This document shows positions 1 through 37,575 of a stretch of DNA of 51,329 bases, piece by piece; the first letter of the stretch is position 1, and each line of letters begins with the position of its first letter. The position numbers were made by a program, and so were the translations under genes. The notes beneath the pieces were generated by a model that was not told where the DNA came from, did no database searches, and saw only the letters and a program-made list of their open reading frames with translations. The stretch is from Trichomonas gallinae (lineage: Eukaryota): NCBI GenBank assembly GCA_008369845.1, contig MRSU01000988.1, positions 1 to 51,329 of the forward strand. Reading direction: 5' to 3'.

Positions 1-788
1 AGTGATTCATATATTGGTCACAAGAATGCGGCCTTAAAGCATTTCTGTGCTCCAAAAAGACTTCAGTTCTATGACCGTTAAGATTTTAACGTCATTTCTA
101 TCGTCATTGGTACACCTCTGTTACAGACATGAAAAAATGGCATTTCAAAATTTCATTCTGAAAAATTAATATAAACGCATAAGAATCTCGCACATAAAAA
201 GTAAAGGCTATTTTTAACACAGCATTAATATTATCTTTTGAATTTTACCGAAAATTAATTTTAAGAATTTTATCTGGTCCTATACTGGAATACTTAATGT
301 TTTTGACATATACAAAACCAGCTTAAATCATCTATGCTATACTGAACCCGATTTAAAGCCAGCCTAATAGCGAATAAAAAAAAGAACTTCGGTTAACAAC
401 AAATTATTGCATGTATTTGCTTATATTAACAATGATGGGCGAATATATCTATAAGAAAGGGGTTGAGTTAATAATCGTTTTGACAAAAACAAAACAAAAA
501 TCACAAATCAAAATTGAGAGTTGCGATCGTGAATCAGTTCTGTGGATATTTTTTTTGACCAACTTTGTATTTATATCTTTTAACTCATATATAATGGTTT
601 AGAACTAAATTGCTTAATTGAGATGATTTTGAAATATTTGTGAACACATTTGTTCCTACTTTGTGAGCGAACTTGAAATCACATTAATCTACTACAGATA
701 TGGAATAGTTTTAAAGAGATTTGGAAAAGAAAAATTATTTGTTTAGAAATTTTTGAAGTGAAATGAATTAATCGTAAAAATTTTTGGT

Positions 789-794
789 TCATTT
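789..794 (+). promoter_or_regulatory. Inr-like element TCATTT upstream of LDH
   Basis: TCATTT ends 7 nt before ATG 802, matching the trichomonad initiator consensus and position. Confidence 0.65.
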
Positions 795-801
795 ATTAAT
801 T

Positions 802-1803: not shown

Positions 1804-3222
1804 TTTATTTTTATTTATTATTTCTATCCCCCAAAATTCGAATTAAAAATCGAGTTTAATTAAGATCATTTTGCTTATAGCAACCATTAAATAATGAATA
1901 GCTACTAAAAATTGCATTTCATGATTCATAAAATTTTTCGAAAATATATTAGGATTTTTCTCATTGAATATAATAAAATATGGAATATAACTTTGCATAG
2001 AGACTAATTTTCGTAAACTTTTGAGCTAGTTCCGAAATATTTCATTACCAAAATATTAATATGGAAATTAGATACTAACAAAGTAACTTTCACTTCTAAC
2101 ACGAGACAACTGACATACCTGAAGAATCAATAAAGAGATAATCACTCGATATAATAATAATTAATATGCATTGTTATTTCTTCATAATACGCGACGAATA
2201 TAGTGAAATATAGACTGAAAACAAGTCTATGTTATCGATGCAATGTTTTAGGTAGCCTTATCCCTTAAAAAGGCGATCGACTAATTAGAAACATTCAAAA
2301 CTAAAACTTTGCAATCAAAAGTATAAAACAGTTACGTGTAAGACAGAAAATAGTGAAAAATATTTGGTTTTTCATATTTTTCCATTTGACATTCACATGC
2401 TATTTAAACTCACTGCTAGACCTTCAATTCAAAAAAAGTTCCGCACAAGACAATGGATAAAATACTAATGTCTAGGGGTCATATATCAAAATATTTCAGG
2501 AATAAAAAATTAATTGCATTGAAAAAACATATTCAGTAAAAAACATGTTTTATTTTTGAAATGAACTCTTGAGATATAAAGAATTATGTACCCGTTATTA
2601 TATTATTACGCTACAGATATGCATGGAGTAAGTTGATAGCTGTATTTTTATAAACATACATTTGAAAGCAATTACTGAAAGTGAAAATCCAGATCTATTC
2701 ATAACATATATTATATTAAATCCTGATAAACCAATTATTTTTTGAAAGAATAACTATCGTACATTCTGAAAATTGTCCTTTTGTAAATTGAATGTGATGT
2801 AAAGAATTTTATTTACGCATAGTTCACTTATAAATATGTTATAAGATGTTTTAAAGCAATTTATATTTTGAATATGTTGAATAAAATATCAGTTAATGAT
2901 ATAGTACATGATTTATATTAAAATATTCATTAATAATTTTTCAATCACTATCAATTTTCAGATAAATAATTTTTACGTTTATCTTTGTTATTCTATGATT
3001 TCATGCAAAACCAAGTCCTAAATTCAAAAAGAGTTTTCTTTCAAAAAATATCTAATAAATATTTATGATTAATATGACAAAGATAGCAGAATAATTTTTA
3101 CAAAAGAACACATTGAATTTTTCTTTTATTCATTAATCACCTGTATTTTTAAATAGAAGTATAATAAAGCAAAATTCGATTCTAAAAATGTTTCTTTGAA
3201 TCTTCAATCAAATATATTTTCA

Positions 3223-4793: not shown

Positions 4794-6569
4794 ATGGATA
4801 ATTCTCTTTTCAATGTCGAAAATTTGGAATTTACAAGTATTGTAGATATTGAAATTCCAGAGTCATTGCAGACAATAGTAGGCCTAGGAGAAATGATCTG
4901 GTCAGTTAAATCAGAAGAAGAAGCTAAATCAATTATTGAATATGTTATTTCTAATGATATAACGATTGGATATGTTCTAAGAATGATTGAATACATCTCA
5001 TTACACAGAAAACGATACATAAAGTACTTACTCTTAGTTTTTGAAGAATTATATAAAAATCCGAAGCATAAACAAGAAACAATGAAAGTAAATGCCGACT
5101 TTGGAGTACTGCTGAGCTCCCACGACATAAAAATGGACTATTATGGATCTACAAAAAGTCCTGAAAAAGTTTTATCAATTTATGAAGAAAACACGCCATT
5201 TTACTTCTGTGTGTTCGATTTAATCGAAGAGTTGAAGAATGCTGCAGCACGTGCAGATTTTTATGTAGATTTGTCAACAAGAGAATATCAATTCGATGAT
5301 TATTCATTAAGTTTGCTTGATATATCTTGCAAATACGGTTCTATAGAATGCTTTAAGTATTTGATCATGAATGGAGCCAAAATTAGCCAATTTTCAGCAA
5401 AAATGGCAGTTGAAGGTGGAAATCTTGAGATAATTAGAATTCTTCAACGCGAAGGCATCAAGTTTGATAAGCTTTATTCATGGGGATGCGAATATCACCA
5501 TAATCACATCTGTGACTGGTTATTAGAAAATTATCAAAGCGATTTGTTGACATTGTGCGATTCTTTGCTGTACTATAACATAAAATCATTCCTTTTCTTG
5601 GTTGCCAATGGTTTTGATGTAAACAAAATAACAATTGTAATTCATCATAAAATTAAAATTACAAATTCGAAGAAACGCCGCTTACTGTAGTTTGTCAGCA
5701 TGGAAATGCTGAGCTTTGCAAGTATCTTATTTCTTGTGGAGCTGACGTTAATGTTACTGTTAGAAACAAAAGAAGTAACAAAATTCATCATTAATTTATT
5801 ATTTTACTCCTTTAGCTTTAGCAGTTGAGCGTAACTTCGTTGATATTTGCAAGATTCTCATTGATGCTGGCGCAGATAAAAATATTCATTTGAAATATGA
5901 AATTAATCATAATTTTATACAAAAATAGTTCATTTTTGGCTCATGATGTTCATTGTTTTATCATTTAGTTCATTATTTAGTAATGATTGCGTTAATTATT
6001 AATTTTTATGATTTATCATTCTAATATTCAGTTCATTTATATTGTTATGAATTTCATTTGCGTATTTATGAAAGAATTCATTGCTAAATTATATAATTCA
6101 TCATTTTTTAATGAAATAATTCTTTAATTTGTTATAATTCTCTATTAACGCTTGCTTGCAAACTTCACGCATTCGAAACATGCAAGTTCTTGATAGAATC
6201 AGGCCTGGATGTTAATTTCGTATACTCATACGAAGTAATTCCCTTTTATAATGATTATGTTCATCTTAAGTTTTCGATGTGGTTCATTATTTTTCTTATT
6301 TGAACGTTCATCATTCTTTTGCGATGTTCATCATTGTCTTTTGACACTCGACTCAGCGAAATCCATTATTTAAATATGAAACTTCTTTGACAATCGCAAT
6401 CGAGAACCAGGACGAAGACATTGTTGAGTTGCTGCTGAATAATGGCGCCGATGTTAAGTTGTTTGACGCTGTGCAGCTGGCTGAGAAATACAATAATGAA
6501 AAGATCAAAGCTATGCTGCAAAAATACGTTGTAGTCAAACCAAAATCTAGACATTGTTTAATCATATGA
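4794..6569 (+). CDS. DUF3447-type ankyrin-repeat protein, coding sequence split into five blocks, with C-terminal CaaX (CLII)
   Basis: The 4794-5636 block contains LLDISCKYGSIECFKYL, AVEGGNLEIIRIL and YHHNHICDWL. Further ankyrin repeats follow: EETPLTVVCQHGNAELCKYLISCGADVN (~5666-5773), FTPLALAVERNFVDICKILIDAGADKN (~5803-5900), NSLLTLACKLHAFETCKFLIESGLDVN (~6133-6234) and ETSLTIAIENQDEDIVELLLNNGADV..CLII* (~6369-6569). Confidence 0.8.
5885..6335 (+). repeat. Degenerate ~20-24-nt periodic TTCAT arrays inside the ankyrin gene's intervening sequences
   Basis: TTCAT at 5885, 5929, 5949, 5969, 6032, 6053, 6077, 6097 and 6260, 6283, 6307, 6327, with single copies at 5641 and 5784. Confidence 0.75.
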
Positions 6570-8868: not shown

Positions 8869-10524
8869 TTTGATTTTTTGATTTATCGTATTTATCTCAA
8901 TTTTAATTATACGATTGTTTGAAAAACAGCATTAGCTCTGCTTTCCTATATTCTTCGTTTGTTATTTCAATTTTTCAATTATCAAAGAAATTTATTAACA
9001 TTAATTTATTTAAATGCAAATTTTTATTTTTTATATTTTTTGAAAGTACTCAAAAATTTTCTGAGATTTATTCATCGAACAACATTTCATAAATCACTAA
9101 TTTATGTCCAATATTAAAAAAAGCAACAAAATTCAGAAAAAATTAGGGGCCCAAAATAAATATCAACTAGCTCCCTAGGATTTGGAATTTAAATTATTTC
9201 TTTTTTATAAAACTTTTGAATACTTCATTTCAAATACATTCAAACAAAAATAATCATGGTTTCACACACATTTAGGTATATCGATGATAGAAACAAAATT
9301 TGAACAATTTGAATAGTAAAGAAAATTTTTAGTTCTTTCAAAAAATGATCATTATAAAATATGATATATGCATTAAAATAATCAATATTTTCAAATAAAA
9401 AATTTATTCAAAATTAATAAAATTTATGACAAAAGTTTAACTCTTAAAATTGCTATTGCTACACTTCTTCCTTTCCGTTTGCAATCTCTACAATCCGAGT
9501 ATCAGCATCACAAGTGTTTCGATCCTTGATTTAGAAGAATTACTCGAGATTTAAAGATAAGGTTAATTTTCATAACAAGGTTAATATTCATCAAACAATA
9601 AACATAACAAAAACATCATGAAATAAGACATTCATCATCAGTTGCCTCAATTGACTCTATTGTATATATAACAATTTTCTTCCATTAATTGTATATTTTA
9701 GATATTCGACTTGTAATTTTCAATGGAAGAATGATACAACTATTCATCTTCTATTAGAACTTGTAGTTTTCAATGACTAACAGCATCAGAATTCAGTTAA
9801 ATCATGTTTCAATTCTTGTTTTGGCCACAAAAGTTATAAAGTATGATGTACATCCGATTTGTATATGTTAGCTTGATCTGGAGAATTTAGTTCGAAATCG
9901 AGTTGAATCATTTCTATATTTCTTTCTTTTTATTGACTCAGGAGGCGAAGCATATTCAACATTAATCTTTATGCAAAAAAATTGATTTGGTTTTATTATA
10001 AAATTAAGATATGTCTTGTTTGTTGACGCAATTATTGTTCTTCAATATTGATATTCTGTTAAAAATTATTCATATCAATAATAATTTCATAATTGGCTGT
10101 AAATTGATTGATATAATCGATACATATCAGTATTAGTCTGAATTTATAAATCAATTCATGTTGTTTCTGCATGAAATTTCAAATCAAATTTTATAATGAT
10201 AAATATTCCAAAAATATATTAACAAAACTTTATTTCCTCTTGATTATAAGAGAATTATTGTGATCAAACAAGATTTCAGTCTGGCCATATCAAAACTCAA
10301 TAATCCATTTTGAAATACATATCTATCATTGCAGATGTTACATAGATATAAAACATATATTATAATTGAAGGCATAAAAGATATAAAAATGGAAATAAAA
10401 ATTCCTAATTTCAAATTTAAAGATTTGTGAGCTAATTTTGAATATTTACCGAGAAATACTATATCAAAAGACTATTTTTATAACCAAAATCTCAAATAAA
10501 AAATTGGCGCCAAAAAAACTATAA

Positions 10525-35115: not shown

Positions 35116-37575
35116 ATGCTATAGTCACCAATATCTGAGCCTATTGGTGGAAAATATTCCACCAATTATGAAATCCTCATTGACACAGAGTACAATATCA
35201 CCAATCTCATTATTAGAAGAGAGACAAAAACAATTTTTGGTTCAACAGCAACAGAATACGCGACAAAATCGTGTGCAGCCACATTATTAACATTTTCTTT
35301 CCAATCAGATCCTTTACTTGAAACTATTCAAAAATATGCATTTTATAATTGCTTTGTTTTAAAAACCATTGATTTACGAGAATGTAGAAATTTAAAGGCG
35401 ATATACAATAATGCGTTTGCATTTTGCACAAGTGTTACTAATATTTACCTCCCAGAAGGTTTAACTTCGATTTACGAAAATGTATTTCAACAAACAAAAA
35501 TTACTGAATTTTCTTTTCCAGAGTCCGTGAATATATTCCCTCCAAGCTGTTTCAATGATTGTCGTTCGTTAGAATCTATTAATATCCCAAACGGAAGCAA
35601 TATTTTATCATTCGGAAGATGGTGTATAGTTAGAACAAAAGTGAGTACTATTACAATACCTTCAAAAACTAATTCGATTTCAAGCAGTGCATTTGAAGCA
35701 TCATCACTATCATCAATAATTATCAGCCCTTTAAACGAAAATTACAAAATTATCAATAACGTCGTGATCATAGCAAAAACGAATGTTGCAGTTTTTTATC
35801 CACCGAAATTGACCGATGATACTTTAGATATTCCTGAAGGTGTTGTAGAAATTGGTGCAGCATCTTGTTCATATGGATCTTACAAACATATAAAAATACC
35901 ATCCACACTTAAAATAATTGGTGGCTGGTGCTTTTATAGCTCGAAAATTGTTGACGTCAACATCCCATCAAATGTTATTTCTATTTACGATAATGCTTTT
36001 TATGACTGCCAGTCTTTGAGAACTGTTAATATTGCTGAAGGCATAACTCAATTAAATACAAGCTTATTCCAATATTCTGGAGTAAGTTCCGTCAAAATTC
36101 CGTCAACTGTCAATGTAATATACGCGCAATGTTTTATTGCTTGCAGAAACTTATTAACATTAGAGTTGCCTGATGGAATACAGAGATTAACTGGTACAAT
36201 ATGCAGCCCATGGACTCAGTTGATTTTTAGCAATAAATCGAACCTGTATATATATGATCAAAAGCTTATTATTGATAAAGCCAACACAACAGTTATGCAG
36301 TACATTGGATCAAACTCCGCTATTGATATTGACATATTTTCGTCGATTAAAGTTCTGAATAATTATGTTTTCTCTGGGATGTCGAATCTCAGATCAATCA
36401 AGTTTGCTCTTAACTCATCTTTAACATCAATTCAAACTGGCTGTTTCAAGAATTGTCGCAATTTGCAGTTCATCAATTTTCCGACAAATATTTCGTTTAT
36501 TGGAAATGAAGCCTTTATGAATTGTAATATGTTGACAAGTTTTACGTCAGCAGTTCTTAATGATTTATCCGACAGTGCATTTCACAGGTGCAACTCATTA
36601 ACGACAGTTAAAATAGATGAAGCTCCAATTAAATCATTACCGACCCAAGCGTTTTTCAACTGCGTTTCTTTGACATCTATTTTGCTGCCTAATTCTCTCA
36701 CAAGTATTGGCCAGAGCTGCTTCGAAGGTTGCACAACTTTGTCGACAGTCATCTTTCCGCCAGCTTTGTCTTACTTAGGAAACAACTGTTTCATGAATTG
36801 TGCATTGACAGTTTTAGATATTTATTCATGCTCTAACCTGAAAAACATTCCTGATTTTGCATTCAGCCATAATCCTTTGTCCAATATAGTTTTCAACCCA
36901 GAGATTGTCAAAATAAGCTATGAATCATTTTCTTACACAAATATAGCAAACTTCACGACTCCTCCCTTTTTGCAAACAATTGGAAGCAGCGCGTTTAGAG
37001 ACTGCACGTCCTTGGTAAACATCACAATAACTAGTGACTCATCATTAGAATCATTTGGTTCTGGCTCTTTCAGAGGCTGTATTTCGATTGAGAAAATCGA
37101 GTGCTCGAGTTCATCATTTACGGTTTTGACTGGCGCTCTTTTCAACTCTGAGCGAAATTATCTCATTTTATATCCACCTGCCTCTGATGTCAAATATTTC
37201 TCGATGCCGGCATCAACAAATATCATCAATGACTATGCATTTTATGGATGTCTTAATTTAATTTCAGTTTTCATACCTACAAACAGCGTCACGCAAATTT
37301 CGAATAACGCGTTTGAAGGTTGCAAGAACTTGAAATGGGTAAACATACCTAAGAGTGTAACATTTATCGGTGTTAACGCTTTCTTGAACTGTAAAATGCT
37401 CAGCTGTGGACTAGAAATAGAAAACAGACAACCAACATATCTGTCTAAACTTGTCAAAGATGCAAAACTTAACAAAATATGCCTGAAAGATTGTGATGCA
37501 TGTGCCACTCCAATCTGCAGGAATGCATATACATTTAGCTGGATGTTATTCATTATGCCATTCATCATTCTTTAA
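35116..37575 (+). CDS. BspA-like (TpLRR/LRR_5) surface protein with in-frame TAG at codon 3 (pseudogene or readthrough)
   Basis: The frame is open from 35125 to 37575 with LRR_5 units (LETIQKYAFYNC, LTSIGQSCFEGCTTL). ATG CTA TAG lies at 35116-35124 in the same frame. The track's 35527 start is an internal GTG. Confidence 0.8.

What the first reader, a model, noticed from the sequence alone, without database searches (positions are those of the whole stretch)
5637..6569. Ankyrin gene interrupted at the same position of four consecutive repeats by non-canonical intervening sequences: candidate undescribed splicing or recoding system
Seen: after ..NGFDVNKITI the reading frame runs into a stop. 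Four intact ankyrin repeats follow (EETPL..GADVN; FTPL..GADKN; NSLL..GLDVN; ETSL..GADV..CLII*), with codon starts at position mod 3 = 0, 2, 1, 1, 0. Every break lies in the hairpin loop between DVN/DKN and TPL/TSL, while the coding blocks have no internal stops and the gene ends in a CaaX box. Random pseudogene decay would not respect repeat boundaries this way. The inserts are about 26-29 nt (from 5637), 26-29 nt (from 5775), ~230 nt (~5900-6130) and ~120-135 nt (from 6235). Three start with GTAA (GTAATT 5637, GTAAC 5775, GTAATT 6235), but the third has no GT at its expected boundary. None has the trichomonad branch/acceptor consensus (ACTAAC..CAG). Insert 1 has no AG that restores frame while keeping the repeat. 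A GT-AG reading of insert 2 (5775-5815) deletes the TPL motif. Only insert 4 (6235-6356) gives a clean in-frame GT-AG. Inference: an unusual intron class, ribosomal bypass/frameshifting, or DNA-level excision assembles the full protein.
Basis: partly seen in the sequence, partly recalled or inferred. Interest (0 to 1): 0.92.

Follow-up and report, generated by a model that had tools for sequence, protein, structure and literature searches.

The report
Seventeen-base rule-breaking introns in a trichomonad
An ankyrin-repeat gene of a Trichomonas-like parasite is broken by a predicted 19 tiny 17-18-base pieces that lack normal splice signals; assembled reads, probably RNA, of a close relative lack seven of them and read in frame, so they are likely an undescribed class of ultra-short introns.

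Summary
The frame breaks are real, but the four 'inserts' are not single introns. They are stacks of 17-nt (sometimes 18-nt) elements that start RTYCAT and often end AT. Two contigs of one probable RNA run from a ~95%-identical relative lack seven elements and restore the ankyrin frame; one junction was predicted before the call (22 of 24 letters matched). An eighth is partly shown; eleven more in loop 3 are inferred from motif tiling. All eight supported elements fall between codons; none has a GT-AG register or a branch motif. A protein sharing all five amino-acid differences of that run keeps element 1, which argues for removal from RNA rather than a strain deletion. Downstream blocks are under purifying selection (10 of 11 changes silent). 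Homologues, including T. vaginalis genes, often end in the same kind of junk at the same loop. Best reading: an undescribed class of ultra-short non-canonical introns, likely cut by the spliceosome from a type-B-like 5' site plus a length ruler; the machinery is untested. Limits: one run, contigs only, RNA status guessed, no same-isolate DNA. Not found in ten literature searches.

The parts
4794..5639 (+). First coding block: N-terminal domain, ankyrin-like repeat and DUF3447, up to loop 1
   Evidence: ORF, Pfam DUF3447 and Ank; 43% identical to T. vaginalis TVAG_004680
5640..5656 (+). Element 1, 17 nt, phase 0 (three equivalent registers, none GT-AG)
   Evidence: 17 letters left out in X1 contig; registers; retained in P0001
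5657..5782 (+). Coding block: ankyrin repeat
   Evidence: Pfam Ank E 9.9e-07 for 5669-5782; covered by X1 contig
5783..5799 (+). Element 2, 17 nt, AT..AT, single register, phase 0
   Evidence: Predicted in note; loose end of the contig matches 5800-5823 at 22 of 24 letters
5800..5883 (+). Coding block: ankyrin repeat
   Evidence: Pfam Ank E 2.4e-05; first 24 nt in X1 contig
5884..6118 (+). Stack of 11 inferred elements (starts near 5884, 5902, 5928, 5948, 5968, 5991, 6011, 6031, 6052, 6076, 6096) with 0-9-nt kept pieces
   Evidence: Inferred only: motif tiling; a stop-free, all-phase-0 parse exists; no contig covers it
6119..6135 (+). Element, 17 nt, last of loop 3; 3' end partly supported
   Evidence: X1 contig alignment begins at 6136 with 5 unaligned letters before it; matrix score 11.0
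6136..6258 (+). Coding block: ankyrin repeat and first part of loop 4
   Evidence: Weak Pfam Ank; covered by X1 contig
6259..6377 (+). Five elements (6259-6275, 6282-6299 of 18 nt, 6306-6322, 6326-6342, 6361-6377) with kept pieces of 6, 6, 3 and 18 nt; all phase 0
   Evidence: X1 joint 6259-6378 with 32 letters between; kept window letters match 31 of 32
6378..6569 (+). Last coding block: ankyrin repeat, capping helices, CLII-stop (CaaX-like, prenylation inferred)
   Evidence: Pfam Ank E 1.1e-04; covered to 6521 by X1 contig; six listed differences all silent; end

Best explanation
The gene is interrupted by 17-18-nt elements that are absent from assembled reads of a close relative and are likely removed from the pre-mRNA as a class of ultra-short non-canonical introns, giving a predicted protein of about 482 residues with a DUF3447 domain, four further ankyrin repeats and a CaaX-like end. 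Shown: seven elements are missing precisely, in frame, from two contigs; they begin RTYCAT, lie between codons and have no GT-AG register or branch motif. Inferred: the contigs are RNA; loop 3 holds 12 elements; the 5' end is read by sequence and the 3' end mostly by distance (17, sometimes 18 nt, weak preference for AT). Committed guess for the machine (about 0.45 on its own): the cell's major spliceosome, using the type-B-like 5' site. Stacks would grow by duplication of one element plus whole codons, which lengthens the protein and is tolerated only in the ankyrin hairpin loop; this would explain both the loop position and the shared phase.
For: Deletion of 17 at 5639, joint 6259-6378 whose 32 letters match the predicted kept pieces 31 of 32, and loose end matching 5800-5823 at 22 of 24 (the last predicted beforehand). 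X1 looks like RNA: its two long contigs lie wholly on the neighbouring genes and end near their borders, at depth 75 and 61 against 3.7-10 on this gene. All 5 listed X1 differences that change a residue in the first frame equal P0001, which keeps element 1 on a 7.7-kb contig. Silent changes: 23 of 27 listed upstream, 10 of 11 visible downstream (P 2e-6 to 3e-5 under neutrality). Three elements have one possible register, so no microhomology. The T. vaginalis orthologue lacks junk at loop 1, carries junk from the same position in loop 2 and stops in loop 3. 15 of 37 full-length homologues end within 36 residues of loop 1; element-type signatures are enriched in terminal loops (phase-0 type 8 of 59 against 9 of 370 internal loops, P 7e-4; FI-type 5 of 59 against 1 of 370, P 2e-4). 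A newer NCBI model of TVAG_019730 jumps frame at loop 1, implying about 20 nt missing with non-GT-AG ends (my back-translation). For the spliceosome: 4 of 4 GT-starting elements fit the type B donor GTWYWD and 7 of 8 fit its positions 2-6 (motif from PMC13548475); T at +2 in 8 of 8 and A at -2 in 5 of 8.
Against: One run, two contigs, depth 4.6 and 10.3; the tool marks X1 as RNA only by guess; no raw reads and no DNA of the same isolate; the kind of contig behind P0001 is not known. Eleven of 19 elements have no read support and their parse is not unique. 42 of 59 terminal loops of homologues show no strict signature, some being natural ends, the third signature is not enriched (4 of 59 against 27 of 370), and in the 37 full-length homologues alone the phase-0 excess is not significant (6 of 23 against 3 of 40, P 0.06). 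No processed full-length homologue was found in three protein searches. Against the spliceosome: no terminal AG, no CTAA branch motif, half start AT, three end without A at -2, and kept pieces are as short as 3 nt. The RTTCAT core is common in ordinary coding sequence of the window and not depleted in phase 0 (7 seen, 5.8 expected), so the motif alone is not sufficient. The newer TVAG_019730 model may reflect an assembly difference.
Confidence: 0.75

Rival explanations
1. Same RNA-level removal, but by a non-spliceosomal cut-and-ligate system: a protein binds RUUCAU, an endonuclease cuts at its 5' edge and 17 nt further on, and an RNA ligase joins the ends. A version coupled to the translating ribosome would explain why every element lies between codons.
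For: No AG, no branch motif, near-fixed length, 3-nt kept pieces, 8 of 8 supported elements in phase 0 including three with a single register; an all-phase-0 stop-free parse of all 19 exists.
Against: No shared fold around the elements (folding energies -1.7 to -7.4 kcal/mol, different pairings), unlike IRE1 or tRNA-type substrates (recalled). Phase 0 can be inherited by duplication, so the eight cases are not independent. No depletion of the phase-0 core in other genes of the window (underpowered for the full 9-mer: 0 seen, 0.5 expected). No enzyme identified.
Confidence: 0.3
2. DNA-level difference: the elements are insertions that killed the gene in the window's lineage, and X1 comes from a lineage or paralogue that never had them or lost them.
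For: X1 is a different lineage (about 95% identity) and its RNA status is a guess. Many homologues look truncated, and trichomonads are known for split genes (bioRxiv 10.64898/2026.08.31.748405).
Against: X1 matches P0001 at 5 of 5 listed residue-changing sites while P0001 and the more distant window both keep element 1; 10 of 11 downstream differences between window and X1 are silent; T. vaginalis has junk at the same point of loop 2. Seven exact independent DNA losses would be needed.
Confidence: 0.1
3. The polymerase skips the pieces during transcription: the core resembles the trichomonad initiator (TCA-Y-T/A, recalled), and a bound factor could make RNA polymerase II jump about 17 nt.
For: The sequence just upstream of the start codon of the gene at 802 scores like an element (11.6 at 787).
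Against: No known precedent (recalled); only 3 of 17 genes checked had a strict initiator match within 40 nt of the ATG; retained forms occur in Logan contigs of unknown kind.
Confidence: 0.05
4. Reverse-transcription or assembly artefact in X1.
For: Low depth, one contig per junction, AT-rich sequence; five of eight elements have 1-2 nt of microhomology.
Against: Three elements have none; all junctions restore the frame, sit between codons and share one motif and length; the loop-1 junction brings the loop to about the length seen in T. vaginalis.
Confidence: 0.04

Closest known systems
Trichomonas type B spliceosomal introns (23-26 nt; GTWYWD, 7 nt, TCTAAC..AG; PMC13548475 section 21, PMC12316389 passages)
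   Same: Same organisms, very short, T-rich, 5' hexamer fits GTWYWD in all four GT-starting elements.
   Different: 17-18 nt; half start AT; no branch motif; no AG; stacked with 3-18-nt kept pieces; all supported cases in phase 0.
Tiny spliceosomal introns of Stentor (15 nt) and the Bigelowiella 18-nt introns (lengths as cited in PMC12316389; GT-AG ends recalled)
   Same: Length range.
   Different: Those keep GT-AG ends; these do not.
U12-type introns with RT..AN ends, and non-canonical spliceosomal introns of Fritillaria (both recalled, no call)
   Same: T at +2 invariant, A at -2 favoured, first and last base relaxed.
   Different: No U12 5' motif or branch motif; far shorter; three of eight lack A at -2.
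IRE1-cut HAC1/XBP1 introns and archaeal or tRNA-type bulge-helix-bulge introns (26-nt XBP1 intron seen in a search listing; the rest recalled)
   Same: Short, no GT-AG, removal shifts the frame.
   Different: Those need defined hairpins or a helix at the cuts; no shared structure here; many elements per gene.
T. vaginalis 'split' and 'readthrough' genes (bioRxiv 10.64898/2026.08.31.748405, parts 1-3 of 4 read)
   Same: One transcript across frame-broken gene pieces, ankyrin genes among them; 1,465 split genes, 923 by frameshift.
   Different: That work explains them by stop-codon readthrough; a term search of its main text found no 'deletion', 'indel' or 'editing'. Here the breaks vanish from the assembled reads.

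Membership tests
Trichomonad type A/B spliceosomal intron | GT..AG ends | tested here: not met
   No register of any of 8 supported elements ends in AG
Trichomonad type A/B spliceosomal intron | Branch motif (R/T)CTAAC at fixed distance from the 3' end | tested here: not met
   No CTAA or TAAC in 8 of 8; full motifs absent from the window
Trichomonad type A/B spliceosomal intron | Type B 5' site GTWYWD | tested here: inconclusive
   4 of 8 match fully, 7 of 8 match positions 2-6
Trichomonad type A/B spliceosomal intron | Length 23 nt or more | tested here: not met
   17 nt in 7 and 18 nt in 1 of 8; 23 nt is the shortest reported
Spliceosomal intron in general | Lariat intermediate and dependence on snRNPs | not testable with these tools
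   Needs lariat sequencing or depletion
U12-type intron | RTATCCT 5' motif and TCCTTAAC-type branch site (recalled) | tested here: not met
   Position counts give RTYCATYWT; no TAAC inside
IRE1-type unconventional intron | Two hairpins with conserved loops at the cuts (recalled) | tested here: not met
   Folding of 8 elements with 15-nt flanks gives no common structure at the cuts; only genomic flanks were folded
tRNA-type or bulge-helix-bulge intron | Helix joining the two ends with bulges at the cuts (recalled) | tested here: not met
   Same folding
Mobile DNA insertion or ciliate-type eliminated sequence | Target-site duplication or TA direct repeat at the ends (recalled) | tested here: not met
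   Three elements have zero microhomology, the rest 1-2 nt of varying letters
Programmed frameshift or bypass | The mRNA keeps the interrupting sequence | tested here: not met
   Contigs of the probable RNA run lack it; RNA status is a guess
Parabasalid DUF3447-ankyrin protein family (the host gene) | DUF3447 followed by ankyrin repeats | tested here: met
   Pfam; T. vaginalis homologues

The most novel reading that the evidence does not exclude
Trichomonads run a second, non-spliceosomal mRNA-processing pathway, possibly on the translating ribosome, that cuts out 17-18-nt RUUCAU elements between codons one after another; it acts across a large ankyrin gene family and turns many apparent pseudogenes and split genes of T. 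vaginalis into live genes.
Probability: 0.3. Interest if true: 0.98.

Novelty: new variant of a known kind. Interest (0 to 1): 0.9.

Why it matters
T. vaginalis is held to have about 50-60 introns, all GT-AG and at least 23 nt, and it has 1,465 unexplained split genes, open since 2007. Both recent intron surveys kept only known motifs, and the aligner's default treats gaps under 21 nt as deletions (recalled), so 17-nt elements would have been invisible. If real, this is a hidden intron class at the size floor of splicing with no 3' AG or branch motif and 3-nt exons. It would change gene counts and protein models in human, bird and cattle parasites, and existing long-read RNA data can test it at once.

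Tried and rejected
No whole genome was held, so no genome-wide scan. No RNA holder on record was listed; X2-X5 gave nothing on this gene, and no contig covers 5824-6135, which says nothing either way. GT/GC-AG readings: 6 for insert 1, 6 for insert 2, 0 for insert 3, 4 for insert 4 keep a frame; all conflict with the contigs. A search with the last block found 3 unrelated ankyrin proteins; the profile search found 6 proteins, no processed form. Two alignments were too diverged to search loci. No depletion of the phase-0 core in 18 window ORFs. A loose signature count also matched normal ankyrin helices, so it was replaced by the stricter one. Literature: ten searches found no report of such elements; the library lacks most subscription papers and I read no supplements, where junction tables might list them. 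Five look-ups of earlier scan findings gave nothing relevant.

Full report
Setting. The window is gene-dense and AT-rich, with DUF3447-ankyrin, BspA, Pmp-repeat, leishmanolysin and Myb genes. The best named homologue of the gene is T. vaginalis TVAG_004680 at 43% identity, so the source is a trichomonad other than T. vaginalis (inference). No whole genome was available.

Observation. The ORF from 4794 runs 298 codons into a stop, and four ankyrin blocks follow in frames 2, 1, 1, 0. The gene ends CLII-stop. The stretch 5901-6100 is the richest in TCAT of the whole window, 10 copies in 200 nt, which pointed to a repeated unit.

Reads. One run, X1, holds 12% of the sampled words and is marked RNA by guess. 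Its two long contigs lie wholly on the neighbouring genes and end near their borders, at depth 75 and 61, which is the pattern of transcripts. Three short contigs lie on the ankyrin gene (depth 3.7, 4.6, 10.3). One lacks exactly 17 nt at 5639. Another joins 6259 to 6378 through 32 other letters. Those letters are the window's own pieces of 6, 6, 3 and 18 nt, left after five gaps of 17, 18, 17, 17 and 17 nt; they match at 31 of 32. I then wrote down the prediction that loop 2 holds one element at 5783-5799. The second call returned a loose end that matches 5800-5823 at 22 of 24. The same contig set begins at 6136 with five unaligned letters, which fits an element ending at 6135.

The element. 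Eight supported elements give the consensus RTYCATYWT followed by an AT-rich tail; T at +2, C at +4, T at +6 and T at +15 are present in 8 of 8. Ends in the aligned register are AT..AA, AT..AT three times, GT..AT, GT..TC, GT..GC and GT..TT. No equivalent register ends in AG, none holds CTAA or TAAC, three have no microhomology, and all eight lie between codons of the processed frame. A matrix from the seven fully shown elements tiles loop 3 far better than any of 1000 shuffles or 804 other tiles. Twelve elements there, 19 in all, give a stop-free frame of 483 residues or, with three 18-nt elements, 482 residues with all 19 in phase 0. The eleven uncovered elements remain inferred and the parse is not unique.

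RNA or DNA. P0001 is a 298-residue protein on a 7.7-kb Logan contig, 96% identical to the window's ORF, and it keeps element 1. It differs from the window at 14 residues. Five lie where X1 differences are listed, and X1 has the P0001 residue at all five; the other nine are uncovered, at contig ends or inside the element. So one lineage shows both the retained and the removed form, and the more distant window shows the retained form. That is what removal from RNA predicts. It is not a same-isolate comparison, and the kind of contig behind P0001 is unknown.

Selection. Of 27 listed differences upstream of element 1, 23 are silent. Of 11 visible downstream, 10 are silent in the ankyrin frame, against an expected silent share of 0.21-0.29 (P 2e-6 to 3e-5). 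Differences within about 30 nt of contig ends were not listed by the tool, apart from those I read from the joint and the loose end.

Family. A full HMMER search gave 150 best hits; 139 of the 153 proteins then held could be anchored at loop 1, 37 over their full length. Fifteen of the 37 end within 36 residues of loop 1, and 23 end within 45 residues of some loop, a few of them natural ends. The tails are rich in the three readings of the element: the motif I/V-H-H/Y occurs 9 times in 2,365 tail residues against 16 in 37,551 body residues, F-I-I/F 12 against 20, while the serine reading is not enriched. Terminal loops carry the phase-0 signature in 8 of 59 and the FI signature in 5 of 59, against 9 and 1 of 370 internal loops; 42 of 59 carry none. 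Four clusters include named T. vaginalis genes. TVAG_004680 has no junk at loop 1, junk from the tenth residue of loop 2 as in the window, and a stop in loop 3. For TVAG_019730 the old model and a Logan protein run into junk, while a newer NCBI model continues into an ankyrin helix in another frame; comparing the two tails implies 20 nt missing from a Val codon onward with non-GT-AG ends (inference, may be an assembly difference). In one unnamed cluster a six-codon element-like piece is read through in frame in one member and frameshifts in the other. All of this is protein-level; no DNA of a homologue was obtained.

Mechanism. Shown: precise loss of seven elements in assembled reads, with frame restored. 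Inferred: loss happens on RNA; the 5' end is set by sequence and the 3' end by distance. I favour the resident spliceosome because the 5' hexamer resembles the type B donor (PMC13548475 section 21), T at +2 is invariant and A at -2 is favoured, which is the pattern spliceosomes tolerate at relaxed ends (recalled). The lack of AG and branch motif, the AT starts and the 3-nt kept pieces weigh against it, so a dedicated cut-and-ligate system, perhaps tied to translation, is a close rival. Phase 0 is striking but could be inherited, since a unit of one element plus whole codons keeps phase when duplicated; such growth adds residues, which the hairpin loop tolerates. The core motif is common in normal coding sequence of the window, so further signals must exist.

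Known work. PMC12316389 (abstract, passages, sections 6 and 15 read) reports 63 introns, shortest 23 nt, after default STAR mapping and discarding junctions without known motifs. PMC13548475 (abstract, passages, section 21) is motif-guided too. The preprint 10.64898/2026.08.31.748405 (parts 1-3 of 4 and a term search) describes long transcripts across split genes and reads them as stop-codon readthrough. Other papers were seen only as search listings. No supplements were read. Ten searches found no description of these elements.

Verdict. It fails the sequence tests of every intron class I considered, yet works like an intron. Confidence in RNA-level removal is about 0.8, in the spliceosome as the machine about 0.45. 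Interest 0.9.

Noticed in passing
window 35116-37575 (+): A BspA-type gene has ATG at 35116 and an in-frame TAG at its third codon, followed by 816 open codons; the next in-frame ATG listed is at 36295. Pseudogene, readthrough or sequence error.
   Followed up: partly
window 787-801 (+): The sequence just upstream of the lactate/malate dehydrogenase start codon scores like an element (11.6), that is, the element resembles an initiator plus short 5' leader.
   Followed up: partly
window 2899-3150 (+): Second-best cluster of element-like motifs in the window (5 hits, score 42), in the spacer upstream of the phosphoesterase gene.
   Followed up: no
P0023, P0161, P0162 (T. vaginalis TVAG_019730): Old and new NCBI models diverge exactly at the ankyrin loop by an inferred 20 nt; a ready first target for read alignment.
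   Followed up: partly
P0019 and P0163: Two members of one cluster differ by an in-frame versus frameshifting element-like piece at one loop, and the longer one stops in the next loop.
   Followed up: partly
window 9776-9790 (+): An ACTAAC..CAG motif resembling a type A intron 3' end in a spacer; the strict motif was not matched.
   Followed up: no
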